The position numbers were made by a program, and so were the translations under genes. DNA of 64,000 nucleotides from Pocillopora damicornis (lineage: Eukaryota). Below, piece by piece: positions 2,583 to 63,314 of the stretch (its first letter is position 1; each line of letters starts with the position of its first letter). The stretch covers positions 1 through 64,000 of the forward strand of contig NW_020844410.1 of assembly GCF_003704095.1 (NCBI RefSeq). The letters run 5' to 3'. The notes under the pieces were generated by a model. It saw nothing but the letters and a program-made list of their open reading frames with translations, did not search any database and had not been told where the DNA came from.

Positions 2583-2725
2583 TGTTGTGTCTCGCGGAAT
2601 TGAATGAATCAAACTAGTACAACACAACAAGGTTTAATCAAACATGGCGGTTTACATTCAACGACAAGCGCACATGGTATGCGTTCTTATAATAGTAACA
2701 AAACCGCAGACCTTCATGTGCGACA
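2583..2725 (-). repeat. 5' LTR of Gypsy copy 1 (143 bp, TGT...ACA), followed on the minus strand by a PBS (TGGCAACGAGG)
   Basis: About 92% identical by manual count to 5264-5406. TG...CA termini; TGG-starting PBS directly inside; gag ATG (MPFGKIE) near 2520. Confidence 0.88.
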
Positions 2726-3441
2726 TAGCAGGACCCCCCGGTCCAAATCCGCTAGCGATTGCAATAGTTTGTTCGCACCTAATTCTTGCGTATACTGTAC
2801 GACTCACTATAATAAATGCGGTAGAATTGGAACGAAATGGCTCGTTGTTGTTGTTGTTTTTTTTAACCCTTATTGAGGAATGTTGTGTTGTTGCCAAAAG
2901 AAGTGTCCGGCCATGGTAAAGGTAGGGTTAAGTCGATTCCAAAAGCTGATAGGGGAATTGGCAAGCGTGTATCACAGATAGTACTCAAGATGTCTGAAAA
3001 ATTCGTACAATCTGGCTTCGGTAAGTAGGCTACTTACCACCGTGAGCAAAATTAAGTCTCGAGTGGGAATTGGTCAATAGGCTACCAAAAAACACATAAA
3101 AATTTGTCCTTGCTAAATGACAAGTGTGCTGCACGTATTAGCACCCCCGGGGGGGGACCCTTTACATAAGCAACAATTAGCCTGTAAAAACAAGTATTTA
3201 TGTCCTTTCCTGTCTTTTTCTATGCTTCCCTCGCTCCTAAAAAGGATCCATACAAATATGAGAGCCGTGCAGCGTTCACATTTGTATAGGTAGAAAAGGT
3301 CGTCCAGAATGAGTGTTTCGTTCTGTAATGAAAACCCCAATNNNNNNNNNNNNNNNNNNNNNNNNNNNNNNNNNNNNNNNNNNNNNNNNNNNNNNNNNNN
3401 NNNNNNNNNNNNNNNNNNNNNNNNNNNNNNNNNNNNNNNNN

Positions 3442-3633
3442 GACGCCAGAAGGGAAACGCAAGCGGGGTCGCCCCAAGATCACATGGCGACGGACGGTTG
3501 AGAAGGAAATAAAGGAGATGGGGAAGACCTGGTAGGGCATCAAGTTCATGGCAAGGGATCGCCAGATGTGGAGGGAACACGTTGCTGCCCTACATGCCTG
3601 TTGGCGTAAAGGGCATGAATGAATGAATGAATG
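3442..3633 (+). mobile_element. 3' end of an RTE-clade LINE with (ATGA)n tail, inserted into Gypsy copy 2
   Basis: Translates as TPEGKRKRGRPKITWRRTVEKEIKEMGKTW*GIKFMARDRQMWREHVAALH, the typical RTE ORF C-terminus. It ends in a short tandem-repeat tail at 3615-3633; the 5' part lies in the gap. Confidence 0.8.
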
Positions 3634-5263
3634 CGTGGGAGTGGGTATTCCTCTGTCTGAAGCTGGGGGTTAACTGCGGTCTTATAGTCGCCACAAATTC
3701 GAACTGTGTCGTTTGATTTGGCAACTGGCACAATAGGCGTCGCCCAATCGCTGAATTTAATCTTGTGTGGTATGCCTTCTTTTTCTAGACGTTTCAGCTC
3801 CACCTTGACCTTAGGTTTCATGGCGTATGGGACAGGCCTTGCTTTACAAAACTTTGGTTGACTGCCTTCCTTCAACGCGATGCCGATTTCATCCTTAAAC
3901 ACCTCACTATAGTCGTCTATGAGTCTCTCTAATTTCTTCTGGGTGTCTTGTGTCACCTGTTCTTTTGAAATAGCACAGATCCTTTCCCAATCGAGTTGTA
4001 TCTGGTGTAGCCAATCTCTTCCAAACAACGCCGGCCCTTGTGTTTTCACTACATATAACGTTAAGTCCTTGACTTGGTTGTTGTGTTCCACGCGAACAAG
4101 TAGTTCGCCTTCTGGTGTTACCTTCTCTCCTGAGTAGGTTTTCAAAATAGCGGTGGTGTCGACCAGAGGTGTGTTTGGGAAGGTTTCCTTATACGTCTCC
4201 AAGGGGAGTGTAGATATCGCTGAACCTGTGTCTTGCTCCATCTTCAGTTTGTGGCCATTAACTTTTGGTTTCACCCAGATGACGTCACCAACTACCCCAT
4301 GGTTAATATTGTTGACTTCTGGGGATGCCACCAAGCTATCATCAATGCGCTCATCATCTACCTCGAACGAGTGAAGGTTGGGGTTCTCGTTCCTTCGTCT
4401 TCGGGTAGAGTTCTGACCCTTTCCTGAGCGGCATACTCTTTGGATATGGCCTAATTTCCCGCATTTTTGTATGTTTCATTCCTGAAGTAACACTCGGCTG
4501 ACTCGTGTGTACTACCCCCACATCGATAACACTGAGATTTTGATTTGACATCATCTTTCCCTTTAGGAACTCTTTCGCTATCCTTGTTTATTTTGTTGAC
4601 TTCAGACTCTTTATTAATGTTACCCTGCAATTCTAGTGGTTCTTTCGCTGCCGCTTCCATTTCTGACGCTTTGGCCAATGACAAATCTGGCTCGGAGAGC
4701 AGCCGTTTCTGGATAAGTTCATTGTGTAGTCCACACACTAGTCTGTCTCTTAACGCGTCATTCAAGTTAGTTCCGAATTCACAATACAGCGACAATTTCT
4801 TTAGTTCAGCAAGGTATGAACTTACGGTTTCACCTTCGAGTTGGTTCCTTTTGTGAAAGCGGAATCGCTCTGCTATGAGCAGTGGTCTCGGTGACAGATG
4901 CTTCTGTAGTGTTTCTACGATAGTCTTGAAAGACAGGCTGGATGGCTTGGCTGGGGCGGCCAAATTGCGTAGTAACCCATACGTTTTGTTTCCCATTAAG
5001 CTTAGCATTACGGCCACTTGCTTGTTGTCCTTGATTTCGTTGGCAATGAAGTATTGCTCTAGACGTTCCACATAGGCGTTCCAATCGTCGTTCGTTTCGT
5101 CAAACGCTTCAATCTTTCCAATCTGTATAGGTTTAGGTATGGTAGGCAGGTAGGTAGGTAGGTAGGTAGGTAGGTAGGTAGGTAGGTAGGTAGGTAGGTA
5201 TAGGTATAGGTAGGTCGAAGTTTCTCTGGTTGCTGCGTAGGATCTAAATCCTCATCGCCAATC
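3631..5263 (-). mobile_element. Ty3/Gypsy internal region, copy 2 (degenerate): gag with CCHC knuckle, aspartic protease, RT N-terminus
   Basis: gag WNAYVERLEQYFIAN...LIAERFRFHKRNQ...LRDRLVCGL; knuckle CYRCGGSTHESAEC; protease DTGS; RT start WATPIVPV...RICGDYK...YPLPRI. Confidence 0.92.
5127..5215 (+). repeat. (TAGG)n microsatellite
   Basis: Long run of tandem TAGG units with degenerate edges. Confidence 0.95.
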
Positions 5264-10780: not shown

Positions 10781-11728
10781 TTACAGGGAAGCAGCGAGTT
10801 TAGAATCAACGAAATTTTCTGACCGAAATGTTCTGCAACAAAAGGTTCCTCTAATGTGTTGGCGAAAGTTATTACTATGAAGAGCGTAAATGAAGGGATT
10901 TATGGCTGAATTGACGCCAACGAGTACTACTGATATGATATAAGGAACTGAGCCATATGCATACACTTCTGGCTCATACTTAGACAACATATATAACACC
11001 AGGTTAGGTAACCAGCATACTGTGTACATTAAACTCACCACGAAAACCATTTTTGTCACTTTCAGCCTTGATCTGATTCGCGCTTGCTCAGTGACCCCTA
11101 AGTTATTGGGATTTCCTCTATTCCAGAGATTGCAGAGCACCTTTAAATATAAAACTGCCATGGCTCCCACGGGAATAGCACCGAAAACAAAAAAACAAGC
11201 AATGGTGTAAGCTTTAGCCAGATGTTCATTCGCCCAGTGTTCCGGGCAATGGGTTACACCGCGTTTATCATATCGAACAACAAAAAACAAGGGCAGGTTG
11301 AAGATTATGGCGTAAAGCCAGCCAATGATTATGATCGAGATTAATCGACGATTTGTAAGTCGCCAACGATCGCCAAAGGGGTAAACAACAGCGAAATAAC
11401 GCTCAATAGCAACAACTACCAATGAGAATGCTGATGCAGCCCCACCAATCCAGATGAAATTCCCTCCAGTTATAAACTTGCACATGAAATCCCCTGCAGT
11501 ACCTGACGGGTGGTGAAACGCCCACTTGATGACATAAACTGGAATGATAAAAAGCGCCACCATGATATCTGAGGCCGCTAGGTTCACAAGAAGGTAATTG
11601 ACCGGTGCTCTCATTCCATGGTATCGGAACACAACCAGGCATACTACGGTGTTTCCCACGAGATTCACTATAACCACCACAGAGAAAGCAACGGTGAGAC
11701 CCATGTCCAGTGACGTCATAGAAGTCAT
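10781..11728 (-). CDS. Class A (rhodopsin-like) GPCR, neuropeptide-receptor-like, single coding exon, 315 aa
   Basis: Seven hydrophobic segments; GN (TM1), NLAASD (TM2), C3.25, ERY, CWLP and NPFIY; splice acceptor just upstream of the ATG (~11745). Confidence 0.95.
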   Translation of the reverse strand: MTSMTSLDMGLTVAFSVVVIVNLVGNTVVCLVVFRYHGMRAPVNYLLVNLAASDIMVALFIIPVYVIKWAFHHPSGTAGDFMCKFITGGNFIWIGGAASAFSLVVVAIERYFAVVYPFGDRWRLTNRRLISIIIIGWLYAIIFNLPLFFVVRYDKRGVTHCPEHWANEHLAKAYTIACFFVFGAIPVGAMAVLYLKVLCNLWNRGNPNNLGVTEQARIRSRLKVTKMVFVVSLMYTVCWLPNLVLYMLSKYEPEVYAYGSVPYIISVVLVGVNSAINPFIYALHSNNFRQHIRGTFCCRTFRSENFVDSKLAASL

Positions 11729-11767
11729 GGTGTGACCTTGCAGAACTGCAAAAGTAGAGGTAATAAT

Positions 11768-28355: not shown

Positions 28356-28982
28356 TCATCTGCGAAATTCCTCTGAATTGTGTCCGTATTGAAGCATGCT
28401 AACTCCTTGTATGTACTCAAAACTGGTTTTTCGTTTGGCTTTTTGGTTGTCTTTTGATTCAAATAAACCGCCCGGTGGCGACGAGTTTTTTTCGGGAACT
28501 TGATCGTATTTTGAAGAGTACCCCATGACAGAAGTAAGGTTACCATCAAAGTCGTCGCAATTTCCTTTAGGATTGGCCGACATGCAGATAGACTTGCTAA
28601 TTTGACTTATATAGGCCGAGTCTGGTTTTCGACCCTGAGAATTATCCGCAATTTCTGGATCATAGAGAAACGGCTCGCTATGAAAAATTCCATCGGTTGT
28701 ATCACTTCTGCTTTCTGTCCTTAACGTTTCGTTGGTTAATTTGGGGTTATGAAAGAACTCTTGGTCCAGGACTATCTCTGGCTGGGAGTCAAGAGCCAAC
28801 GTTGAATTGATCTGTCTAATTCTCTTCAACCATTCCATGGAACGTTTGTCTTTTTCCCAGCGCAACTTTTGAACTTTTGGCATACGCGGTTTTGTTGCTA
28901 GGGAGATAAACCCTGTTGAACCAGGTCGTATTTGGCAATGATCATTTTGGACCACTTGAACTATAGGAGATAGCCTTTCCAT
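28356..28982 (-). CDS. Uncharacterised protein, family member A (208 aa)
   Basis: Shares PxVxKLxW-x5-SxEWL and RKPDSxYIS blocks with ORFs 33044-33490 and 36641-37501; acceptor TTTTGCAG ending at 29071; candidate 5' non-coding exon donor at ~30180. Confidence 0.75.
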   Translation of the reverse strand: MERLSPIVQVVQNDHCQIRPGSTGFISLATKPRMPKVQKLRWEKDKRSMEWLKRIRQINSTLALDSQPEIVLDQEFFHNPKLTNETLRTESRSDTTDGIFHSEPFLYDPEIADNSQGRKPDSAYISQISKSICMSANPKGNCDDFDGNLTSVMGYSSKYDQVPEKNSSPPGGLFESKDNQKAKRKTSFEYIQGVSMLQYGHNSEEFRR

Positions 28983-29089
28983 AAGGACAAGTCTTTGGTG
29001 CCTTATCTTGTTCCGGCTCCTTTTCTACTCCTTATTTACCTGAATGCTATTAGTTTTCACAATCAACAACCTGCAAAACAAAGATAGAC

Positions 29090-29252
29090 ACGCATGCGTG
29101 GTTGGTTAAAACGACTACTCTAACTGAAAAATATAATTTTACTGTAAGTCGTGTGTGTCTGTAAATTATCACGCACCATTTGATTGGACAAACCAGTGAT
29201 GTTTGTATGTTCATGTGAAAGCTTAGCTGCTCCAGTGACGTATTAATGATTG
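29090..29252. repeat. ~165-bp locally duplicated non-coding element (second copy ~31708-31874)
   Basis: Both copies run from ACGCATGCGTGGTTGGTTAA through CCATTTGATTGGACAAA to GTGACGTATTAATGATT. Confidence 0.85.
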
Positions 29253-32200
29253 CAAATTTTTTTGTCGTAATAACATATTAAATTCTGAAGCATTTTTCCC
29301 TTTGAAAACGCCGAACAAAGGGCTTAAAAAGTCAGTTTTCTAGGTTTTCACTAGATTATGGAATGTGAAAGAGATGTGTGATTAATATGTTCAAATAAGA
29401 ATGTTTACTGGAAGTTCAGGAAAACGGATGATCGTTCAAACCGGTACCGAGTGCCATTTCTAGCGAGCGCTAGCTAATATTCGAAAGTGATTAAGATCCA
29501 GTGGCTTTTTGTTATCATCCCTTGAAATATGAATCTACACTGGACCGTCTTATTGCGGAGCAGAATTAGTTACTTTCCCCAAAATAAATGCAGATTCCGA
29601 GATTTTCTGAACACCGTTTCATGCTGTCAACACATCTAGTTTAGATAACTATGCTGCGGTTCTAACCGCGACCGGAGAGTCAAAAAGTTGATAGTGTAGT
29701 GATTTCCTCAGTGAAAGCGTAGTTCTGAAAAGGATTGTTGCCCTTGGAATAATGACTAACAGCCTGAGCGGAAGTCATCCCCAGAGTTAAGGAGTTATTC
29801 GTCAGTGGTAGAGCATTATAAACCGTGCTCGTGAAACACTCGACTGAATGAATAATTATTCATTTGACTAAAATAAACAAACTTGCATGTTTGAAAAACA
29901 GATGACCCCATCTTTCAATCATTTTCGAAGACATTAAATACACAGACAGAATCTATTCAAGTTTTTCATTCAAGTGACACTCTATACTGTGCCTAAGTTT
30001 CAAGGAGGTTAATGTATCCGTACTTAGATCAGCAGAACAGTTTTTTTTTTCGAAAACGTTAGCGAAAGAGTTGAAACGATGAACGAAACGATTTCTTCAA
30101 AATATACTTAGAAACAGACAACCTAAATGATGATCGTGGAGATCAATCTATCAAAACACGATAAAGATCGGTCCACTTACCACTCAGATGAAAACCAGTC
30201 GAACCAGAGCAACTTTCGATTTGTTGTTAAAACTCAACACGTCCTGAATAGAGTTTGAGGCATCAGATTTGTTATTAGTGTTGATCAATGTTTTAAACAA
30301 GGTTTGTTGTACGACTTTGCAGTGGAATCCTTTTGACGCGTCAGTGATTTATTTTTAAATTTCTGAATTTTTTGAATGTACTTACGATATCATAACAAAA
30401 GAAAAAATAAATTAGAATTAATAGCGATCGTTAAGTTCTGCCTGTCTTCTAGTTACCCCCTGAGGCGTTCAATCGCACGTCATGCAATCGTGATTTTTTA
30501 ATTCAAATAAATGTCACCATATGTACAAGACTTAAGAGCTTAGCTTTGTTACGAATGACAGACGAAATCCCAGATAGGTTATTGTGACAATTCCAATGTT
30601 AGTTGTCCATGTTAAAGAATTGCATCTACGATGATTTTCATATAACCTAAATAAAGATGGCGGCAGTTCCACTCATTGATGATTAAACGATGGTTAGTGC
30701 TGTCATTTAAAATTCATGACTGTTTCTGCATGTCATAGGTTCTTTTGTCTGACTGTTAATTTACCTCCAATATTCGCCTTTATCGCCGCTTTACGTAGAG
30801 GCTTAATCATAACAAAAACTGAGGAAAAAAGAAGGAAAATGGAGAAATGAAACAAAAATAAATAACTTTAAAGATGTAGTGTAATGCCAACTAAGGGTAT
30901 CGATGAAAGTACCAAAGGTTAACTTATTTGTTTGTTGGGTAATTGAAGTAGACTTTAAGAGCCGGTTATCCTAAATTGGACCGCCTTTTTAGGATTTCAA
31001 TAGACTTTCAGATTTCTTAATAAAAGCGGTTTTGTAATAAGCATTATTGCAATGTTAGTTGTAAGTGTCCTAGACACTGAACACAAAAGTTAGATAAAAA
31101 GTTTGACTAAACAAGAGATTATTTACGACGCGGTAAAACTAAACAAAGGCTTAACCTTATCTACGCCTTAACCATGTCGCGTGCCCGCTCACTGATACGA
31201 ACAATAGGAAGCAAACACTGTGGTTTTCAAAGTGAGAGGCCAATACTTTCACTTCGTTGACAGAAGAGTTACGCATTTTTCCTGTCTTAAGGATGGCAAT
31301 ATAAGTAATTTGTTGGCTCGTATATAGCAGAGTCATCATGAAACGTCAAGAAAGTAATTAAGAAGCATTGATTTCAATATTGGTACAACCTTGTGTCGGT
31401 CAACACAATGGAGCTTATTTTGTGTTATGTAGAAATATCAATTCCAGTTCAGAATTGTGATACCCAACCACTAAAAACTGAGATTGAAGTCAAATTTTGA
31501 TCTTGTTTTTAAACACACCATGGTTCTGATCATATGTGCTAAATATTTCCCTTTCTCTTGCCCAGCTCTGTTTGAATCACATAAGGAAAAGGGAAAAAAA
31601 ACAATCAAAATGACTGAGTACTCTTCAGCTTTCTAAGTTTATCGATAAGTAACGCATATGAAGGTTGTTAGTTTTTACAATCAATAATCCACAAAACAAA
31701 TGAAAAAACGCATGCGTGGTTGGTTAATGACTACTCTAACTGGAAAATATGGAAAATATAATGTTATTGTATGTCGTGTGTGCCTATAGTTAAAACGCGC
31801 CATTTGATTGGACAAATTAGTGATGTTTGTGTGTTCATGTGAAGCTGATCCTCTCCTGTGACGTATTAATGATTTCCCTTTCTTGTGTCCACCACTGTTT
31901 GCATAATAAAAGAAAAAGGAAAAAAAAAACAATAATCGAAAGGACTGAGCACTCTACTGCCTTCTAAGTTTTTTATCGACGAATAACCGTCTGCATATGA
32001 TGGATATTTTTAACTTGAAATCCTCGGTGAAACCAGCAGCCGGCGCTGGTACTAGAACGAAATGTTTGTATTATACCATCAACTATTATCAAAAATTACA
32101 ATCTCTTACTATTGTAGATGTGAACATGTGAACAAATCAGTACAATATTAAACCTTAACCAGCTAGAAGTTATATAATATAACACCACACTAATGAAAAT

Positions 32201-33043: not shown

Positions 33044-33490
33044 TTATGTTATTCCATTTAACAAACAGATATACGTTGAATCAGGTTTCCGCCTGTTGGT
33101 ATCTTCAATATTTAGGGACTTCACTGATGAAGGTCGATTTAAGCTTGAAATTTTAGCTCTTTCTTTTAACTCTGTTAAAGCAGATTGCCTCCTGAGACCA
33201 TCAAGGCTTTGACTTTTACGACCACTTTTGAACTGTCTGCTTGTGTATTGCGTTGTAGAGATTTGCATGTCTTTTGTGTTAATCTTGATTTGATTTATTC
33301 CGGGTTTAATGGCAAATACAGATGTTTTAACGAGGCTCATTCGCTTCAGCCACTCTTGAGAAATACTGCTCTCTGTCCAGGACACCTTTTGGACTGTTGG
33401 AACTGTTGGTTTGGATGCCGTTACCTGGCCGCCATATGATTCCGTTTCTTCCACGATCCTCGGAAGCCCTGGATTAAAACACTTTGCCAT
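33044..33490 (-). CDS. Uncharacterised protein, family member B (148 aa, possibly C-terminally truncated)
   Basis: PTVQKVSWTESSISQEWLKRM and RKPDSTYICLL match members A and C. Confidence 0.7.
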   Translation of the reverse strand: MAKCFNPGLPRIVEETESYGGQVTASKPTVPTVQKVSWTESSISQEWLKRMSLVKTSVFAIKPGINQIKINTKDMQISTTQYTSRQFKSGRKSQSLDGLRRQSALTELKERAKISSLNRPSSVKSLNIEDTNRRKPDSTYICLLNGIT

Positions 33491-36400
33491 TCTTGTTAGC
33501 TTTCATTCCCCAGTGTTCATTCAAACTCCAAGCGAAGTTAAGAAGTTGTTCATTCTAGCATCAGTATTCAGCAGTCCTTATCCAGCAGCTCACTAGCTAT
33601 TTGAACCAAAAAGAAATCCTGAATATCTTTTCTTCGTTTGGAGATAAAGATTTTGACGACTAAAGTCCAAATGAATTTCCTTTCAGACAATCAGTCAATA
33701 ATTAACGAAAGCTACTATTGCTACGTCTAACTTGCTATGTCATATTGTCAAAAAGTCGTTTGAAAAATAAACTTAAACAGCAAAAATACCGTGGAAAATC
33801 TTATCATTAATTATTTAGAATATCCAAGCAAAGATGGAACAAAGATTTTCCATAAAACCCATGCTAACAAATTGGATGTAAAATTAACTTTTAAAAGTGT
33901 GATCAAAGATTAACCATTTAGCAATTGATTATCGCTTATTTTCTGGCCACCAGGTCAGAGACAGGTTATTAACTGTAGACACCGATTTATATTCATTAGT
34001 ATCATTAGATAGGTAAACTGTCGGACTCAATGTTATTTATTTTCATACAGGTGAAGTGCTATGTCAGCCACCTATGAATTATACAATAATGCGAGTATCC
34101 TACAGTTAGTGTCGATTTCTGTCTGATCAGTTTGTATCGCGTAGTTATTCAGTTATATCTGAGAATAGGACAGCCTACAAAAAACAAACAAGGCAGTAAA
34201 CAAACCTCTCTGTTAACGCAGAGAAAAATCATAAAGAAACGACGATTTCAGGACAGGCTTTACTGATTTTCCATCGCCGTAGTTTTTTCGCCGTCAGTCG
34301 GCTTGGTTACTGTTTATGTATCTGGATTAACAACTATGAGAGAGTTTTGGTTTTGTACGGTTGCCAGAAGCAACCTAAAAAATCCTTCCATCACAATAAG
34401 TTTAAGTCGCCTAGTATTGCCAGCGTTTCACTTGACTAACATAATAGAAAGTTCTAAGCAATATAATCCCATCAGACTGTTATGACATTATCCTTTTAGA
34501 AGCTGATTCCCTTTATTTCACGTCTTACCTCCCGCTGAGTTTTTGAACTGGCGACGTAAGCAGAGTTGTTTTTAAATAATCTGACGTAAGTGGCTGAATA
34601 CAACATCAAATGTAAGACCTCTGTAAGAGGTTAAGTGTCAGAAAACTTACCACCAAAATTACTGCCTTTCATTTCAACTAGTCTCTTAACAGTACAACCA
34701 AAAAGTTGCTGAAAGGTTTGACTCAAATCTTTACATCAGTGTTACTAAACAACAAATGCAATATAATTAACTCCGATATCAATAGCAAACCATTTTAAGC
34801 GGGTGTGAGGAACAAAAAGATTTAAGTGTATTATGGTACCGCAAACCCTGCATATATTGTGTACATTCAATGGCTACGTAGACAGAGAGGCTGCACTGAA
34901 CAAAACCTGCATGAACTTGGGTTTGTATGACGAATTTATTAAATTATTAAAATTTTCCAATTTATTATTAACATTTTGCTCTATACTTACTTTGAGGAAT
35001 GTGTAATATTTAAGTTCAGTTGTATTTCTTTCTTGATATTCAGCAGCTAGTATTCTATTGAAGTAAAACATGATGAGAGTAACTTCAATAAATTAAAACA
35101 TTTCTTTTATACGATACCGCAGCATGTAAACAAAATGGATCTCCCGCAATGGCCCCCGACGTAATGCGTATTGGTAGAATTTTGATCATTAACTTTGACA
35201 GATAAGTTGCAAGGCAACCAGAGTGAGTAAGATTTCGAAAATTCCCCGTACGGTTTTGAAGACCAACTCCTCAGGATTGAAATTGTGCAAAAGGTTTTTT
35301 AATACGGTCAGATTTGATATGCGATTAATTCGCTCAAAAAAATATCGTCCATTTCGAACTGTCCCGCCCCATTCGGTTTACGATTAGTTCAAGCGAAAAC
35401 GAAATAATTTCTGGCTAATAATGCATTTCATAATCTTTCTGTTGATATATAGTTTATGTTGGTTATGTTTCAAAAGGCGCATTAATTTTTTTTTTGCGGA
35501 GGACACCCGCGAAGGTCTATTGTATCCTTTGAGTCTTTTTGGAGACATATTCACGATTAAGAAAAAGAGGAATTCACGGGACCCGTATTTTCTCTTGTCA
35601 CGAACTATCGATACCTTTTACTAAAGGAAATGTGATTGACTGGATTTGGTCATGGTGTTATTATTATTATTACTTTAGTTCTGCCCTTCAATTGATTTTA
35701 ATAAAGTGGTCGCCCCAAGTTTTCAGATCATTCACTTAAGAATCTCTTGGTCAGTTAGAATATATCAGGGTGAAATAACCGAAAACTAGATGTACAAACT
35801 ATGGTGTGGGAAGTGAGGGGGGTGGGGACCGGGGGTTACGATTTAGTAAGGAATAAAGGAACTGACAAAATCATACGTAATAAATAATATTTATTTTCAT
35901 CGCGTAGACTTGACAGACTTACATAATAGATTGCATCGTTGATATTTTTTAATTTAATATAATGTACAAGAAATAATCAACTTTTGGCTTCTAGTTAAAT
36001 TTACCTGGGATACACATTTCACAATTACAACTTTAATAGACAGACACAACAGATCGCTATTTCAAAATCTGCGTAGCCTCTCTTTTCAAGTCAAATAAAA
36101 CATTTTCTTGTGCTGTTTTCAAAGAAATAATTTAACTCAAATAACTTTTCTTTCAATACATGTAGAAAACGAAATTTTCCTTTAAAACTTTTTTTCCTTT
36201 TGATTTATTGAATTCTAATTAATTTACAAATAATTCAGAGAAAATTAATGTTGCATGTCAAAATCAATCCCGACTTAGTCACCTCTGTGATTTGAGGTTG
36301 ATCACTAACAGATGCTGGATGAACTTCTTATGGGCAGAAAGTTTTCACTGCTTGAAAATGGCTCCTTCAATTTCCTAAGGTTTTGGGTTGACTCAACTTA

Positions 36401-36640: not shown

Positions 36641-37501
36641 CTACCGGCCAATCTGTTTAATGTACTCGCAACTGCTCGACAGTTGACGATGAGCGTTGGG
36701 GGAAGAGCAGAAAAGCTTTCGTTGAGTAAACATGTTCATTTGAATGCAATTTAGATTTTTACAGTTTTTCGCCTTCTTTAGTTCATGATTCTTTCCCTCT
36801 CCATCTATGTGGTGTCCACCAAATTGCGCATGCGTCTGCTTTTGTGTTTCCTGTGTTAATCCGCTGATCAAGGAAATGTACGTTGAATCAGGTTTGCGTA
36901 CGTCAGAAAGTTGAGGCAAGCTTTCCTTCCTCACAACCTTTACAAAGCGTTCGGATGGTGCAATTCCACGTATTTTAGACGAGTCTTGACGACAAGGAAC
37001 AAATCCTGCTCTTTTTCTATCACTGCTAGAGTTTAGCGTAGGCAATTTTCCGGAGCGATGAGGGCTTTTTGGTGTGCAAATCTCCAAGTGATTCATGGTG
37101 GATGTTAGTCTGTTGATCTTGTTCAGCCACTCATCTGATAACTTGTTGTCTGTCCAGTTCAATTTCTTTACCTCAGGAACCCTTGTGTTAATAATCGCTG
37201 GTTTTTCCAACTCTAGGTTTTCATCTTCCTCTATCAGGCATGGCAAGGGGTTTAGACGCTTCACCATTGGGTATGAATGCGAACGCTGTCGAAAAAATCT
37301 GTTTTTTGGCCAGGCCACATTACTAACTTGCTCCACGTATGACCTAGACATGCTTGGGAAACAAGGAGAGTCGGCTGTGGCCTTTACAACATATTCCTGT
37401 CGGCGAAATGTTAACACTTTCTTTGCCAGTGTATCGTGTTTGGAGCGTTGCTCTTCGTTTAGGACGTTATCTTTATCGATCTCACAAAAGAAAATTTCCA
37501 T
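36641..37501 (-). CDS. Uncharacterised protein, family member C (286 aa)
   Basis: PEVKKLNWTDNKLSDEWLNKI and RKPDSTYISLI; acceptor CCACAG two bases before the ATG; candidate upstream donor at ~38820. Confidence 0.8.
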   Translation of the reverse strand: MEIFFCEIDKDNVLNEEQRSKHDTLAKKVLTFRRQEYVVKATADSPCFPSMSRSYVEQVSNVAWPKNRFFRQRSHSYPMVKRLNPLPCLIEEDENLELEKPAIINTRVPEVKKLNWTDNKLSDEWLNKINRLTSTMNHLEICTPKSPHRSGKLPTLNSSSDRKRAGFVPCRQDSSKIRGIAPSERFVKVVRKESLPQLSDVRKPDSTYISLISGLTQETQKQTHAQFGGHHIDGEGKNHELKKAKNCKNLNCIQMNMFTQRKLFCSSPNAHRQLSSSCEYIKQIGR

Positions 37502-40500
37502 ATCTGTGGGTTAAAAAACAAATATCTGTAAGTCACGCATGAGCAATACGCAAAAGTTTTGTAGTAGTCTTATTCAATTCGGAGTATTCTAACGGCCTCG
37601 AGTAAGAGAAAGAGAATATTAGATGTGATATTGAAATAAAAGAAACAATATTAATAAAGAATAGTGCACTTTTGAGAGACAAGAACCTGTGCATCCGATA
37701 GTGATCTCAGGATATGGCGAGGTCAAAAAACTTGAAATTTTTATCCCGTTAATTGAATTGCTTATATTGAATTCCAAGCTCGCGCACGGTAGCATTTGAG
37801 TTTCCTCAGATCACTCTTTGCCCAATTTAACGTGTCGGCATCACAAGTAATTAAACTAAAAAACCGGGTCCTACCAGAAAATGTTTGATTACACACATTT
37901 TGATCAACAAGTCCTATTTTTAGGGGTTTTTTCAGCGACACAACGTCAATAATTGACACCAATTGTATTCTTAAACAAAACTGTTTGCTTTGTGTCTTTC
38001 AATCTTTTGTAGTTCACTGCATGAAAAGTCGGGAAAACTTATGACAATGTAAGAAAAAGCTAACTAAAGATAATTCATTTTCCCTTCTCGAGAAACATGA
38101 AAGTCAAAATATCCTAAGAAATAACTTCCGTTTATCTTCCTTTCTGCTCTCCGGCGTTTGGTTGAGAATTTTCCAAAATATCAAGAGAAAATATTATGTA
38201 ACTTTTCAGTAATAATAGTCGCCCTAAATTCATTGCGCAGCTACATACTGCTGTCGCATGAGTCTAGCAGAACTTTTGGTTTGATAAACCAGCAAGTAGA
38301 TACGGTGCTTAACTCGTAAATGTTGTGTAGTTTGTCTTAATTCCAGACAGTTGAAATGCGTTTCACGTTAAAGGAATTTCAAAGCCCACCTCTGTGTTCT
38401 TTGTCTGTATATGCCCATGCCCATACCATGCTCCGTTATATTGGTTATAGGCCTCTGACCGAAACGGGCCGTGAGAAGAAACCAGTTTCGGTTCAAAGAA
38501 ATGCATGGCATAGGACCAAATTTGACAGTTTAAAAAAAAAACGCTCCTGGGGTTTGTCTAGAGATAAATGCATTAATCGTGGCTTTTCTTAATCTTCTAA
38601 GCAAAGGTTAGCAATTTTATAGACCTCTTTCGATGGCATCACCTGAGGAAGGGTCGAATCTACTTATTACTCAGTGATCCTTAAATCGCGTGATTGGACA
38701 TAACTCAAAGTGATACCGCAGCCAAAGTAAACATTGAATGTCGTGACAACGAAAATAAACTTAAAAAACAAAACTCTTCACGACAAATGTACTTTTGAGC
38801 TTATCTGACCACATACTTACCTGGCTCATCATATTTCTAACCAAGATCACTGTGTTCGATCTAGCGAATTGTTTAGCTTATCTTTAGAAAAGATAACATA
38901 GGTACTAAATAGAGTTTAGTTCTGACTATTTTCTTCAGGGTCCATTGGAGTGTTATCGTTTCGTCAATGAGTCAATCAATCAGTCAATTTATTCATGGAT
39001 TACCGGATAAGGTGTCAGATCACGCAAAGAAATTGCAATATACCTCAGTAATTGTCTAGGTAGCTTCCTCAAAATGACAAATGTGTGAAAATATCTCATT
39101 GATTTAGAGGACGAAATGAAATGCGCAAACGACTTCTCTGCACTATGTTTTCTTGTGTAGCTCAGCATCAGTTGGAAAAAAGTCATTGGAGTGCTAACAA
39201 TGCAAAGCAGAAGTATAAACAAAAGGGCAAATGTAATTGGAAATTATAACTTGTTTAGTCAAAGTTGGCGGTGAAGACAATATAGACACAATTGTATCGG
39301 CAATGCCGTAAATATGGCATTCGGTGAACAATAGCGGAGTGTATTTGCATTTCATAACAACCGCAAACTTTGCATATTGTGTTGATGTTTTTCTTATATG
39401 TTTTGAGTCTAAAAAGTGCGGAAGTCGATCGAGGTTTATATCATCAATGGAACCTAAAAGGAATACGTTTAAAAGACTTCAAACTTCTTGAAACGAACGA
39501 TAGGTTGCATTAACTCAGTAAACTTCTATGTAACCATCACAAATGTTTCAGTACATCGGCAGCTTGGAATTGAGACATCAACGCTTAATTAAAGTTGTAA
39601 CTGACGTGCCGATTGGCTTTTTCTGAACGCTGCAAGATGACAAAATACTGAATTTTTTGTAAGTTATGTTCTTTGAAATATTTGCTCGTGGTCCTAAACG
39701 GTATAAGTCGTTGAGTTATCTGAAACGTGATTTAAAAAAAAGCAAAAGCTCCAAAACGTGCGTTGCGCCTTTCATGTTTACTATTCATCAGGTGATCTGT
39801 TCGCAAATGAACGGCGTCTTTTCTTGTTTAATTTATCTAGCTACAGGTCGTTTACCCTCAAGAAAAAAGTGTGATAACGACCATGGTGAAACAAAAGCAG
39901 ATTTTTTTTCATGCTAAGCCGGCTACCGGCAACATGGATACCTAGTGTACAAACTGAAAAATATTGTTCAAACGCTCCTGATCTGAAGAGTAATTAAGTC
40001 TGTAAATTGGAAACTATGTTTTTTTACCTGAAAGGAATTTTTCCACGCGTATATCAACTGCTTTCACACATTATCGTCGTGACTCGTTCGCTAACTGAAG
40101 CTCAAATGAGAGAAGGCTGTGGGGGTAAAGTATCCTAATAGGTAGACTTTGTATGTCACGACACTCGCAGCATACGTGCTGTGGCCCTTGATGGCTATTT
40201 CCGATCGAGTTACTCTGCCAAAATGGAGAAACTTCTACTTAATGCCTGCCTACCCCACGCAAAACTCCAAAATTTCGAACTCACCTCACGACAACAGCGG
40301 CGTGTCTAAATTTTTTTTCCTGTCGCGGTAACCGCTTGCATTATATCTAAATCTACATACTTGTCACCGGAAATTCTTCACTGAGTGGGCTATATATTTA
40401 AATGAGCAGATATTTTGGTTTTGTTTGTTTTCAAGACTTCCCGTCTTTCTTACGCGCACGTTTCAAGTATCCCGGTAGGTGAAATGGACTAAATCTTCAT

Positions 40501-44979: not shown

Positions 44980-45921
44980 TTACCCTCGCATTTGAATATC
45001 ATTTACAACAATTACATCCCTTCTCTCCCAGCATCTTACGACAAGACATTTTTCGCAACATTGCAGTAGCTGCCTCAAGGACCTTCTGAAGCGTTCACTC
45101 TGAAGACTGTACAAAAATGGGTTCACTGTAGAGTTCACGCAAACCAAAACAGTGCCGACCTTGTAAGCGATGGAGCCATATTGGAAGCCAAAGTACGAGA
45201 GGACATAAGTGACAGTGTCAGGAAACAAACACACTCCGTGTAAAGCTGTGATAATTAGTAAGAGCTTCGTGACTTTTTTCCTTCGTTTAAGCAATGCTAA
45301 ATGAGTTCCAGCGTGGTTACTGCCACGCCACAAGCGATAAATCACTTTGCTGTACACGGAAGCCATGAAAGTAAACGGCAGTATGAAGTCGAAGAACAGA
45401 GTCGCTAAGGTGTATGCTCTGGCAAAGCCAATATTGGGCCAATCTTCAAGACAGATTTTTCGGTCTGTGTCGTACTTCATCACTAGTATCGCAGGGATCT
45501 CAGATATCACAGCAATCAGCCAACTGGTTACAATTCCAAGTTTTACTCTCAGAGGCGTCATACGACCTTTTTTTCCGTATGGAAACAAAACTGAGTAGTA
45601 GCGGTCGGAGGCAATTAGCACCAAAGTGAAGACGGAAGCCGCTGTTCCCACCCAACTCAAGCTCCCACCAGTAGCTACCTTGCAAAGAAAGTCACCGACC
45701 GGAGGCTCAGGATGATGAAAAAATGGACGGACAATATACTGTGGGGATACAAAAACGGCAAAAGACATGTCAGCAATAGCAAGATTTACCAAAAGGTAGT
45801 TCATTGGCACTCTCAAGGATTTGTTCTGGAACACAACAAGGCAAACCAAAGTGTTTCCAACCAGGTTTACGACCACAAGGATGGAGAAAATTACCCCGAG
45901 AACAACTTCTGTAACGGACAT
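44980..45921 (-). CDS. Class A GPCR, same subfamily as the 10-19 kb cluster, 313 aa
   Basis: NLVGN, PMNYLLVNLAIAD, CKVATGG, DRY, CLFP and NPFLY; acceptor AG immediately before the ATG. Confidence 0.94.
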   Translation of the reverse strand: MSVTEVVLGVIFSILVVVNLVGNTLVCLVVFQNKSLRVPMNYLLVNLAIADMSFAVFVSPQYIVRPFFHHPEPPVGDFLCKVATGGSLSWVGTAASVFTLVLIASDRYYSVLFPYGKKGRMTPLRVKLGIVTSWLIAVISEIPAILVMKYDTDRKICLEDWPNIGFARAYTLATLFFDFILPFTFMASVYSKVIYRLWRGSNHAGTHLALLKRRKKVTKLLLIITALHGVCLFPDTVTYVLSYFGFQYGSIAYKVGTVLVCVNSTVNPFLYSLQSERFRRSLRQLLQCCEKCLVVRCWERRDVIVVNDIQMRG

Positions 45922-47501
45922 ACTGTTTAGATGGAGACCAGTCTATCAGTTGTTCACAAAGTGCAGGTACAGACAGTAAATGGAAAATTTTCGAGACGTG
46001 CTGAAACTGAAATAGTTTGCTTTCAAGTTTGCTTTCAAGTGCGTCAGCATAAATCGTCATATGGTTTTCTTTATGTTCAAGAAAAAATAGAAACCAAAAT
46101 TTCTCCAATTATAAGAGCAAAAAAGAAGTGATATGCCCTGATAAACTTTTATCTGGTTAGCAATTACGGTGTTTCGTGTCTAGACAAATATGACTCGATA
46201 CTCACAAACCTTTAGCTTAAAACTGCTCCCAAGAAACTAAAATATAGCGTGCTAAAACCGTTTTGATGAAAAGTGAAAAACCACAGAATTGTTAAGGGGA
46301 ACCTCCCGAGAGTTTCGATAACGTAAACTAAGTTTATTTTTTTAATCTACAAGGGCAACTGAGTGTCCTCCTTCAAAGCATCGCGTTTCTTTTACAACAG
46401 ATCAATGTATATACCATATAGTCAGAAGATCTTAAATGATGAGCATTTAAGATAACTAATAGTAATGTAGAGATAGGCCTCAGAACCTTTGCCAAATCTT
46501 GAGTGGTTTCGTGTATTGCAGGTAGCTTAAGAAAAGAAAGATATTTGTGGTTGGTGAAATCCTTGAGAACGTTTTGATTTAATCAAATTGACGCAGACAA
46601 TAAAATTGAAATTGCATGTATAACAACATGCAAAATGTTCCATGATCGTGTGGAGAAGAGTAAAATCACAGATTTCCTTTGAAAAGAATATGAAATTCTA
46701 TTGTTTCGACTCACTTTCAATATTCCAAGTTTTTTTTTTTTCACCTTTTTGCCACGAACCTGAAGGTAAACTAATTGTACATTTTGTTAAATTAACAGAA
46801 TAAAACGACAGATAATTACCAAATTTTTGTTAAATTATGCTATATTTGGGTAAGGGTACTGAATTACAACTGCTTTCTAAATCACAACGGCCAATCAAAA
46901 CAAAGGTGTTCAATTCAAGGAAGCAGTCAGCCTTAAGCACGGGAAAACGTGACCTTGGTTTCAGTTTACACACAGAGGATGAAACAAGTTTTTTTGGACC
47001 ATCATTACGCGTAGTGAAGTGCTTCTGCTGAAGACTTTCGGCGCTTGATCGAAAATTACTCTAACTAATATATGAAATACTAAGAGTGGAGCAGCTAAGG
47101 GTTCTCTGTTTATGGTTGGAAAGCAGCCTCATACTCCAAAGAGAAATATCGATCAAGAAAGACCTTACAAAGATCATATCACGTAATTTAAATGACACTG
47201 TGAAATTCAAAGTGGATATTTCCTTGTCTATAAGAGCAATGCAGAAAGAATTATCTCAAGAAATATTCCTTGTAAAATCCTAAAGGTTTAATTCAAGATA
47301 TGACAAAAAGTAAAGATATGACAAAAAGTAAACTAGCAAACAAACATAAAATTCTAATGAATATCAATATAACATTAAGACTGTGCTTCGATAACTCAAA
47401 AACGAACAAACAGAAACTAAAAAAACCTTTCTACGTAAGGACTGGCAGGAGGATACTGAAACACAACAAAATAAGAGCTACATATTGATTGAATCTTTCT
47501 T

Positions 47502-61100: not shown

Positions 61101-62520
61101 TTTCATGGCCAAAGTATTCTTTGATGGCGTCGTAAGGCTGGTATTTGAAAATTCTGCCAAATCTTGCCCAGTCTCTCTTCAATTGCTGGCGTTTGTTTTT
61201 TGGAGACTCGCCACTTTCTAATCGATGTGTTCCTTCATGCAAAGGATAACATGCCAGATATACACCATCATAAAGAAGCTTCGAGAGACCCACGTCATCC
61301 GGTTGATCTGAGAATGGAGTGCTGTGAAGGATTTGCTGCAGAAGATGTTGGCGATCAGTGACTGGAAAAAGCGAATTTTCACCGACATTCTGATCAAAGA
61401 CATACTTGGAAAGATGATCTCTTTTGAATTGGCCCATGAAGTAATCCGTATTTTTCTCAATAGATGCATCACGAATCTTAAAAGGGTTTCTCCTGTTAAT
61501 GGCCGTAACTACAGTTGATCCCAGCAAGTACTCCATCCAAGAAGTAAAAGTGGTGTCGTTAACCAGAAAGGGAACCTTCAGTTTTGCAGACTCGGCTCTT
61601 TCAGCGAGAACTTCCAAGGGAACGTGAACCAAGACAAAATGCCTCAAAACCTCAGTATCCTTTTAGAAGAGAAAAAAAAGATAAGATTAAATATGTAACG
61701 GAAACTTTTTTTTTATTGAAATGTGACGGAAAGTTCATAATAAATGCAATTTCCCTTTCCAAAACTTTTTGCACGAAAATAACTTTGAAACAAAAGTTAA
61801 GCCGAGGAAAGTGGACTCTGACCTTCTTAATCAAGATTTGCGCAAACAACCAAATGTTGCGAAACGCTTCTCTCCTTTAAAACCAAATTATTTCCTAGAT
61901 GCGTACTTACTAGGCCATGAAATTTGCTCATATTTGCATAGTAATCGATGTGACATCTCTTATCGTCCAAGTCACTTTCATATCCATAAAAAATTTTAAT
62001 AAAACACGAGCAAAATTTAATTGAGAATTAACATCAAACCTCACAAAAATAGAAAACAATTCTTCTTACTGTTAATTGTTACCACTGTTTGAATTAATAA
62101 TGAGGCTCTGATTGAAAGTCAGAAATGCACTAGCTAGTCGGCTTTTGGTTTACTTTTTATAAGTGGCAAAGTGTGCAGCGTTAACGGTAACGCTTGGCTA
62201 GTTTTCTATTTACTAAACAGATCAAAAAACGGTCTTACCTGTTGAATCGCGCGTGTCTGTCGCTGAAGGATTAATCCTCGTCTTTCGAGCTGGTTTTCGA
62301 AATATGTTCTTTGAGTCGTCAGTTTAAGAGCGGCAGCCGCAGATTGTTCACTTGCTTCTTCATCTTCTTCACAAGTTTCAAACACCAACACGTAATCAAT
62401 TCTTCGCCTCGGCTCACTACTGCTCAAATAAACTCCTTCGTTATCATCCGTGATAAAATTTTCTGAAACAGTTTCATACTCTTCTTCGTCCAAAAGTCTT
62501 GATAATTGTGTTTTACTCAT
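58152..62520 (-). CDS. Anoctamin/TMEM16 family protein 2 (~871 aa, 5 coding exons), tandem paralogue
   Basis: Exons 62520-62239, 61659-60107, 59561-59437, 59361-58938 and 58383-58152; same intron positions and phases, and same motifs, as the neighbouring gene. Confidence 0.95.
58648..58676. repeat. Poly(C) tract at the end of an intronic repeat element
   Basis: About 29 consecutive C after GGACCCCCCTA. Confidence 0.85.
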
Positions 62521-63314
62521 GTTCGGCTTGTTGAAAGCAAACTGAACTCAAGTAGCACTTCGTGACTCGAAAAGTGTTCAAAACCACTAAATCACTTCCC
62601 CTTGAGGCACTATACTATTCTTTGAAAACAATGCTACGTGCCTTACTCGGTATTTCTGGAGTTCACTCGAGGACAAAGTCTACTCAAATGAGCATAACAA
62701 TGCAACTGCAGGACTTACTTACGCATTTTGATAAGAAAACCTGAACTAAATTAAAAACATTGGTAAAATCTTCACAGGGGCTTCCGAATTTTCTAACGCT
62801 GTCAATTCAAGATCGAGAACGACGCTTTTTAACTAATATGTTTAATTGGAGGCGCTTCTCTTCGGCAACGGTATCTAATTTAAATTCACTGTACTTGCTA
62901 GTCATTAATTAGATTTTTTTCTCAAAAGAGTCAACCTCCATCATGAACGGAGTTGAACGAACCGGCTTCTTTTATTTCCCAGCACGTTATAAATAGCTGC
63001 TAACGAAAAGGAGCTTGTGTTTTGGGTTACGTCCCACAAGCGAGAGCCTTAGCCAGTGAATTAATACAAAATTAAAGTCCTAATATATTTGCCTTCCTAA
63101 ATTTCTTTATTTAAAACAATATAAATTCAGCTATAGAGCTAAGCACTAGCTGAAATGAAACTGTGAAAATGAAGCACAGACATATTTTAAGCTCCCTATC
63201 TTCCACTCGCCCAAGCAGAAATCTGGGTGATTAAGGCAATTCTAAAATTTGTGGTGATGTTTTATTCCGTCGAGCTTATCTTGGTCAGTAAATATCAAAT
63301 CAAAGCTCCTGCGT

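What the first reader, a model, noticed from the sequence alone, without database searches (positions are those of the whole stretch)
33377..33388. Conserved K-[VL]-x-W in block 1 looks like a PP1 (RVxF-type) docking motif
Seen: KVSW (B), KLRW (A) and KLNW (C) at the same aligned position, followed by an amphipathic SxEWL segment. Established: PP1 interactors dock through [RK]-x(0,1)-[VI]-x-[FW] in disordered regions, and W-ending versions occur in inhibitor-3 and PNUTS. KVSW fits the consensus; the Leu variants are less canonical. Inference: the family may be lineage-specific PP1 regulatory or inhibitory subunits.
Basis: partly seen in the sequence, partly recalled or inferred. Interest (0 to 1): 0.7.

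Follow-up and report, generated by a model that had tools for sequence, protein, structure and literature searches.

The report
Coral proteins with phosphatase-docking motifs
Three neighbouring, expressed stony-coral genes encode small, probably floppy proteins that share a conserved short sequence block; it likely docks the phosphatase PP1, and a second motif next to it likely docks PP2A, but neither binding has been tested.

Summary
KVSW at 33377-33388 (minus strand) is real. It lies in a 148-aa ORF (B), with KLRW and KLNW at the same place in tandem paralogs A and C. All three are spliced in RNA contigs. Every named relative is a stony-coral protein, and nothing matches in Pfam or PDB. The predicted model of B has no folded domain, so the Trp is not buried.

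The conserved unit is about 25 residues, not four. The Trp is present in 39 of 39 proteins, but only 28 of 39 fit the RVxF definition; independent lineages lose the Lys, put Phe at the Val position or Pro at x. The residues after the Trp fall in register with Inhibitor-3's PP1-binding turn (weak score), but its inhibitory Cys triplet is absent (0 of 39).

Verdict: an undescribed family of motif-based adaptors. PP1 docking is plausible (about 0.45), B56 docking more likely (about 0.7), and an Inhibitor-3-type inhibitor unlikely. No binding is shown.

The parts
33377..33388 (-). KVSW, RVxF-type tetrapeptide of paralog B (the finding)
33047..33490 (-). ORF B, 148 aa, single coding exon, predicted disordered apart from two short helices (45-54, 138-144)
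33329..33403 (-). Block 1 of B (W-8 to W+16): the whole conserved element, including the S-x-E-W-L-x-R segment at 33329-33361
33440..33466 (-). LPRIVEETE, PP2A-B56-type LxxIxE motif with acidic residues after it, 29 residues before the Trp
33056..33091 (-). Block 2 of B, RKPDSTYICLLN, family-wide conserved; partner unknown
33597..34205 (-). 5' UTR intron of B (609 nt, GT..AG); exon 1 at about 34206-34442 is non-coding
28359..28982 (-). ORF A, 208 aa paralog; KLRW at 28857-28868, block 2 at 28596-28631, C-terminal KRKTSFEYIQ at 28401-28436; B56 motif degenerate (Q for E, 28950-28973)
29071..30180 (-). 5' UTR intron of A (1110 nt, GT..AG when cut 2 places right); exon 1 at about 30181-30338
36644..37501 (-). 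ORF C, 286 aa paralog; RQRSHSYP (14-3-3/Akt-type, pattern recalled) 37268-37291, LPCLIEEDE 37220-37246, KLNW 37154-37165, block 2 at 36863-36898
37504..40027 (-). 5' UTR intron of C (2524 nt, GT..AG); exon 1 at about 40028-40277

Best explanation
The three genes are expressed stony-coral paralogs encoding predicted disordered adaptor proteins, and block 1 likely docks PP1, with Val and Trp predicted to enter the RVxF pocket, while an upstream LxxIxE motif likely recruits PP2A-B56. Shown: the genes, their splicing, the motifs, their conservation and the absence of known domains. Inferred: the residues after the Trp (hydrophobic +5, E +8, aromatic +9, L +10, R +12) would follow the PP1 surface as Inhibitor-3's turn and basic patch do, or as a PhiPhi motif does, without covering the active site. 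The protein would then compete for PP1 or target it, not block it. Ser at the x position (13 of 25 B-type proteins) would let a kinase switch PP1 binding off. Members that lost the Lys or carry Pro or Phe would be weaker or lost PP1 binders.
For: Trp in 39 of 39 proteins, V/I/L at W-2 in 36 of 39, K/R at W-3 in 33 of 39, and x the most variable column of the core (2.9 bits), the signature expected of RVxF. 28 of 39 meet the definition quoted in PMC10731240. D/E at W+2 in 29 of 39, the offset of the acidic residue that matters in Leishmania PNUTS (W99, D101). Two hydrophobics at W+9/+10 in 39 of 39, the offset of human PNUTS 410YF411 after W401. Register match to Inhibitor-3 V48, E51, H52, M53, R55; the coral's own Inhibitor-3 scores p 0.001-0.002 against the family columns +1..+12, and hhalign puts it on exactly this block (E 0.019, probability 2.5%). 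AlphaFold2 model of B: pTM 0.25, no domain, highest confidence (about 80) at residues 31-50. LxxIxE plus D/E at position 7 in 29 of 39 (24 of 25 B-type, 5 of 7 C-type, 0 of 7 A-type) against 0.8-3% in shuffles; the B56 rules are from PMC10970375. The genome encodes PP1c with a near-identical pocket exon and B56.
Against: 11 of 39 fail RVxF: Thr, Met or Glu for the basic residue (6), Phe at the Val position (3, one of them also Glu), Pro at x (3); on the tree these fall in about six separate branches. Only 2 of 39 meet the stricter [KR][KR][VI]x[FW] form. Positions that RVxF does not explain are as fixed or more so: hydrophobic at W-5, Pro at W-7 (33 of 39), S/T at W+6. Inhibitor-3's D49 and N50, which make the PP1 contacts of its turn, and K59 are not kept. 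No SILK, no Phe at +12/+13, no Arg at +19/+20 (0 of 39 each). The segment is predicted helical, whereas PhiPhi is a beta strand in solved complexes, and PhiPhi is said to be nearly impossible to identify from sequence (PMC9813921). The p-values were chosen after looking and do not discriminate: the coral Axin helix scores p 0.004-0.005 on columns +5..+16. 25 of the 39 proteins are B-type, many closely related.
Confidence: 0.45

Rival explanations
1. Block 1 is a strand-plus-helix element of about 25 residues that folds on binding a partner other than PP1, and the RVxF match is incidental; the protein is still a B56-recruiting adaptor.
For: The pattern hydrophobic-P-x-hydrophobic-x-x-hydrophobic-x-W and the helix S-x-E-W-L-x-R-hydrophobic are kept where the RVxF Lys, Val or non-Pro rule is lost. 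A similar helix, aromatic-hydrophobic-x-x-hydrophobic-S/N, occurs two to four times per protein, which suggests a repeated helical docking unit. A loose RVxF arises in 26-54% of shuffles.
Against: No partner is identified. Basic residue, V/I/L, variable x and invariant W still hold together in 28 of 39 across all three paralog types.
Confidence: 0.38
2. The helix after the Trp is an Axin-type GSK3 docking helix, so the proteins would be small scaffolds holding GSK3 and PP2A-B56.
For: The coral's Axin helix (L105, near 7641) has hydrophobics at 0, 4, 5, 8, 11 and Arg at 7, the same register as family columns +5..+16; score p 0.004-0.005, post hoc.
Against: 0 of 39 match the published FXXXL[I/V]XRLE motif (PMC3354054). 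The Leu reported as essential is usually Trp here, and the first Phe and last Glu are not kept. Any amphipathic helix with an Arg can give this register. It leaves the invariant Trp unexplained.
Confidence: 0.07
3. The proteins are true PP1 inhibitors of the Inhibitor-3 kind, derived from it or equivalent to it.
For: Register match at W+5, +8, +9, +10, +12, +14, +15 with Inhibitor-3.
Against: No CC or CCC after the block in 39 of 39; deleting CCC weakens Inhibitor-3 binding about 40-fold and raises IC50 from 75 to 422 nM (PMC10066265). No member hits PF07491. The genome has its own canonical Inhibitor-3 elsewhere.
Confidence: 0.06
4. The blocks are not functional motifs; the ORFs are spurious or neutral leftovers.
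For: No Pfam, PDB or usable Atlas match.
Against: Spliced transcripts with GT..AG introns for all three genes; open frames and blocks conserved from Pocillopora to Acropora while the linkers diverge.
Confidence: 0.02

Closest known systems
Inhibitor-3 (PPP1R11/Ypi1, PF07491)
   Same: Small disordered protein; K-V-x-W followed at the same offsets by hydrophobic (+5), Glu (+8), aromatic (+9), Met/Leu (+10), Arg (+12).
   Different: No CCC active-site motif, no D49/N50/K59 equivalents, no SILK-like or basic patch upstream; no Pfam hit; carries a B56 motif and other blocks that Inhibitor-3 lacks.
PNUTS (PPP1R10), RVxF-PhiPhi-Phe-Arg
   Same: W-ending RVxF, acidic residue shortly after, two hydrophobics at W+9/+10.
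   Different: No Phe at +12/+13 and no Arg at +19/+20 (0 of 39); segment predicted helical; 150-370 aa with no folded or nucleic-acid-binding domain.
RepoMan (CDCA2) / Ki-67 (PF15276)
   Same: RepoMan carries both an RVxF-PhiPhi site and an LxxIxE motif in one chain (PMC6363451). The coral's Ki-67-like site has L-S-P-E after its RVxF, one residue off the family's hydrophobic-S-x-E (p 0.03 post hoc).
   Different: No KiR-SLiM (motif in PMC5005033); no PF15276 hit; the coral has a separate PF15276 gene; far smaller.
PP2A-B56 LxxIxE interactors (BubR1 type)
   Same: [LMFI]xx[ILV]xE with acidic residues at positions 7-9, in predicted disorder, kept across orthologs.
   Different: Mostly absent from the A-type paralogs; no sequence relation to any known interactor.
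Axin GSK3-binding helix
   Same: Same hydrophobic register and Arg position in the helix.
   Different: 0 of 39 match FXXXL[I/V]XRLE; no RGS, DIX or tankyrase-binding region.

Membership tests
RVxF-type PP1 interactors | [K/R]-X0-1-[V/I/L]-X(not Pro)-[F/W] | tested here: met
   A, B and C meet it; 28 of 39 family proteins
RVxF-type PP1 interactors | Stricter form [KR][KR][VI]x[FW] | tested here: not met
   B has Q before K; 2 of 39 meet it
RVxF-type PP1 interactors | Motif in a disordered, exposed region | tested here: met
   AlphaFold2 with 29 sequences: pTM 0.25, no domain, two isolated helices. A prediction; the single-sequence model of C (pLDDT 32) is uninformative.
RVxF-type PP1 interactors | Motif kept across orthologs | tested here: inconclusive
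   Trp in 39 of 39, but 11 of 39 break the rule in about six branches
RVxF-type PP1 interactors | Secondary motifs (SILK, PhiPhi, Phe, Arg) | tested here: inconclusive
   Hydrophobic pair at +9/+10 in 39 of 39; SILK, Phe and Arg 0 of 39; PhiPhi is not callable from sequence
RVxF-type PP1 interactors | Direct binding to PP1c lost on V/W mutation | not testable with these tools
   Needs a binding assay
Inhibitor-3 / Ypi1 (PF07491) | Match to the family profile | tested here: not met
   0 of 16 members scanned hit PF07491; hhalign probability 2.5%
Inhibitor-3 / Ypi1 (PF07491) | CCC motif at W+17 to W+19 | tested here: not met
   0 of 39
Ki-67/RepoMan (PF15276) | KiR-SLiM after PhiPhi and match to the profile | tested here: not met
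   No hit in 16 members; motif not seen in alignment A4
PP2A-B56 LxxIxE interactors | [LMFI]xx[ILV]xE with acidic residues at 7-9 | tested here: met
   B and C meet it, A does not; 29 of 39 with D/E at position 7
PP2A-B56 LxxIxE interactors | Binding to B56 lost on L/I/E mutation | not testable with these tools
   Needs a binding assay
Axin-type GSK3 binders | FXXXL[I/V]XRLE | tested here: not met
   0 of 39

The most novel reading that the evidence does not exclude
A stony-coral-specific family of miniature dual-phosphatase switches: one short disordered chain recruits PP2A-B56 and PP1 about 30 residues apart, uses an Inhibitor-3-like extended PP1 grip without the inhibitory cysteines, and is gated by phosphorylation, with the three tandem paralogs carrying different motif combinations (B56 in B and C, 14-3-3-type in C, a C-terminal basic-Ser block in A and C types).
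Probability: 0.3. Interest if true: 0.62.

Novelty: new member of a known kind. Interest (0 to 1): 0.36.

Why it matters
Lineage-specific coral genes are mostly unannotated. This family offers two precise, cheap binding tests (PP1c and B56). If both hold, it adds a small dual-phosphatase adaptor and a non-inhibitory use of the Inhibitor-3 binding path. If PP1 fails, block 1 is a new conserved binding motif whose partner a single W38A pull-down could name.

Tried and rejected
Complex prediction of B residues 20-72 with a stand-in animal-type PP1c (L009, residues 7-300): no answer, score 0.00 in two runs, alignments not used, controls not folded; the tool is untested on disordered peptides, and this is no evidence either way.

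Pfam scans, PDB sequence search, Foldseek on the low-confidence model and two Atlas searches (best 0.77, under the lead threshold, MACIR among them) gave nothing usable. A search for 645-2000-aa proteins holding the family found none among 7987 scored candidates, which is weak evidence. Two weak extra hits in the genome (L093, L097) did not show the block on inspection. The tankyrase-binding Pfam found no Axin; DIX did.

Upstream ATGs in B's leader are not enriched (8 against 6.6 expected), so a uORF-control idea was dropped. Calcineurin PxIxIT, reverse MAPK D-motif, tankyrase RxxPDG, AKAP and eIF4E motifs were compared by eye from recalled consensus patterns and do not fit; a MIT-binding (MIM1) register fits loosely, also recalled and untested. 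Three look-ups of earlier findings returned nothing.

Full report
The observation. Window 33377-33388 read on the minus strand encodes KVSW, residues 35-38 of a 148-aa ORF, here B. Two neighbouring minus-strand ORFs, A (28359-28982) and C (36644-37501), carry KLRW and KLNW in the same columns, each followed by S-x-E-W-L. Searches of the genome with B, C and a distant relative return these three as the only clear matches. They are tandem paralogs and count as one observation.

The genes are real. RNA contigs from four runs of three studies join a non-coding first exon to one coding exon for each gene: 29068/30179 in 2 of 4 runs, 33596/34206 in 3 of 4, 37503/40028 in 2 of 4, all GT..AG on the minus strand. 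Contigs show presence, not level or strand.

Range. B has 18 relatives at E <= 0.01, and a profile search of 1.84 billion representatives gave 24 hits at E <= 0.001. Where records carry names they are Pocillopora, Oculina, Desmophyllum and Acropora proteins, all 'uncharacterized' or 'hypothetical'. Most records are unnamed, so 'stony corals only' is what the names show, not a proven limit. Members of different types share identical longest-contig lengths in two cases (644,836 for P0255, P0270, P0067; 153,968 for P0060, P0064, P0066), which hints that the cluster is conserved; I did not see those contigs. No Pfam or PDB match was found.

The working set. I used 39 proteins: A, B, C; 17 of the 18 (P0004 dropped as an allele of B); 19 of the 24 (dropped: two already in the set, P0052 as an allele of A, P0072 as an apparently C-to-T-converted copy of C, P0073 as an unrelated repeat protein). 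25 are B-type, 7 C-type, 7 A-type. The block was located with a pattern that fixed the residue classes at W-5, W-2, W, W+5, W+6, W+9 and W+10. All 39 matched, but the counts for those columns are not independent of the pattern. Only the first copy was counted in two proteins that repeat the module.

What is conserved. The Trp is invariant; K/R at W-3 is in 33 of 39, V/I/L at W-2 in 36, and x is among the most variable columns. That is how an RVxF should look, and 28 of 39 meet the definition [K/R]-X0-1-[V/I/L]-X-[F/W], X not Pro (PMC10731240, passages read). Eleven do not: they carry Thr, Met or Glu for the basic residue, Phe for Val, or Pro at x, and these fall in about six branches of a maximum-likelihood tree. 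Only 2 of 39 meet the stricter two-basic form. Meanwhile Pro at W-7 (33 of 39), a hydrophobic at W-5, Ser/Thr at W+6, Leu at W+10, Arg/Lys at W+12 (38 of 39) and a hydrophobic at W+13 (39 of 39) stay. Selection acts on about 25 residues.

Structure. AlphaFold2 with a 29-sequence alignment gives B a pTM of 0.25, no domain, helices at 45-54 and 138-144, and its best confidence (about 80) over residues 31-50. The Trp is therefore not buried in a folded domain, and local confidence in an otherwise disordered chain is compatible with folding on binding (inference).

Does the extension look like PP1 binders? In the Inhibitor-3:PP1 structure, residues after W43 form an ordered turn (D49, N50, E51, H52, M53) and R55/R56 enter the acidic groove, placing C60-C62 over the active site (PMC10066265, section 7 and passages read). 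Against the chain printed, the family matches at V48, E51, H52 (aromatic), M53, R55, S57 and S58, and fails at D49, N50, K59 and the cysteines. The coral's own Inhibitor-3 scores p 0.001-0.002 on family columns +1..+12, and hhalign aligns it to this block at E 0.019, probability 2.5%. The W-L pair at +9/+10 also has the offset of PNUTS's PhiPhi, and the coral's Ki-67-like site resembles +5..+8 with a one-residue shift (PMC5005033, passages read). These comparisons were chosen after looking. The coral Axin helix scores almost as well on columns +5..+16 (p 0.004-0.005), so they do not single out PP1, and PhiPhi motifs are reported to be nearly impossible to call from sequence (PMC9813921, passages read).

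About 23-32 residues before the Trp, 29 of 39 proteins have L-x-x-[ILV]-x-E followed by D/E: 24 of 25 B-type (the miss starts inside the motif), 5 of 7 C-type, none of 7 A-type. Shuffles give this in 0.8-3%. It fits the B56 rules closely, including the acidic residues at 7-9 (PMC10970375, passages read). I put B56 docking at about 0.7. In P0057 and P0059 the RxRSxSxP site, this motif and block 1 are duplicated together, so they behave as one module. The genome encodes B56 and a PP1c whose 249-295 exon is 98% identical to a canonical animal-type PP1c.

Mechanism. Most likely the proteins are phosphorylation-gated adaptors: B56 binds the LxxIxE motif, PP1 binds block 1 through Val/Leu and Trp, and the extension runs along PP1 without capping the active site. 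Every binding step is inferred. RepoMan is the known precedent for both motifs on one chain (PMC6363451, passages read), and phosphorylation at x is a known off-switch (same paper). The main rival, nearly as likely, is that block 1 binds another protein and the RVxF match is incidental. An Inhibitor-3-type inhibitor is unlikely because the cysteines are absent.

Novelty. I found no description of the family: a search for the Acropora millepora locus name returned 0 papers, and a search on Pocillopora with PP1 regulatory terms listed two papers that I saw only as listings. The library is partial and supplements were not searched; expression tables there may list these genes. The components are known kinds of motif, so this is a new member of a known kind. 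Interest 0.36.

Noticed in passing
window 33056-33091, 28401-28436, 37322-37348 (all minus): An aromatic-hydrophobic-x-x-hydrophobic-S/N helix pattern recurs two to four times per protein (block 1 helix, RKPDSxYIxLIS, SFEYIQxIS, SYVEQVS); partner unknown.
   Followed up: partly
P0057, P0059: The RxRSxSxP + LxxIxE + block 1 module is tandemly duplicated in these C-type relatives.
   Followed up: partly
window 33062-33079 minus: STYICL fits an ITIM-like or SHP2-binding tyrosine pattern (recalled); S/P-x-Y-[IV]-x-[LI] is in 36 of 39 proteins.
   Followed up: no
window 33491-33553 minus; P0004: The 169-aa database version of B has Trp where the window has two TGA stops, so it is probably a gene-caller artefact of TGA read-through.
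   Followed up: partly
P0072: Looks like a C-to-T-converted copy of paralog C (Pro to Leu, Thr to Ile throughout); left out of counts.
   Followed up: no
window 33597-34205: One RNA run (X3) holds a contig that runs through B's 5' UTR intron unspliced.
   Followed up: no
window 251-5251 minus: Several broken, partly repeated gag-pol-like frames of a Ty3/gypsy-type retrotransposon, by eye, next to assembly gaps.
   Followed up: no
window 10781-18943 and 44980-45942: Four single-exon rhodopsin-type GPCR genes, by eye.
   Followed up: no
window 22346-24326, 47502-50530, 52044-62547 minus: A DEG/ENaC-like channel gene, an endonuclease IV-like gene and two tandem anoctamin-like genes, by eye.
   Followed up: no
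L105 (G000:C1800), L109 (G000:C727), L089 (G000:C3419), L005-L007: The genome's Axin, a Ki-67-like PP1-binding protein, a canonical Inhibitor-3 and three PP1-type catalytic loci, one divergent.
   Followed up: partly
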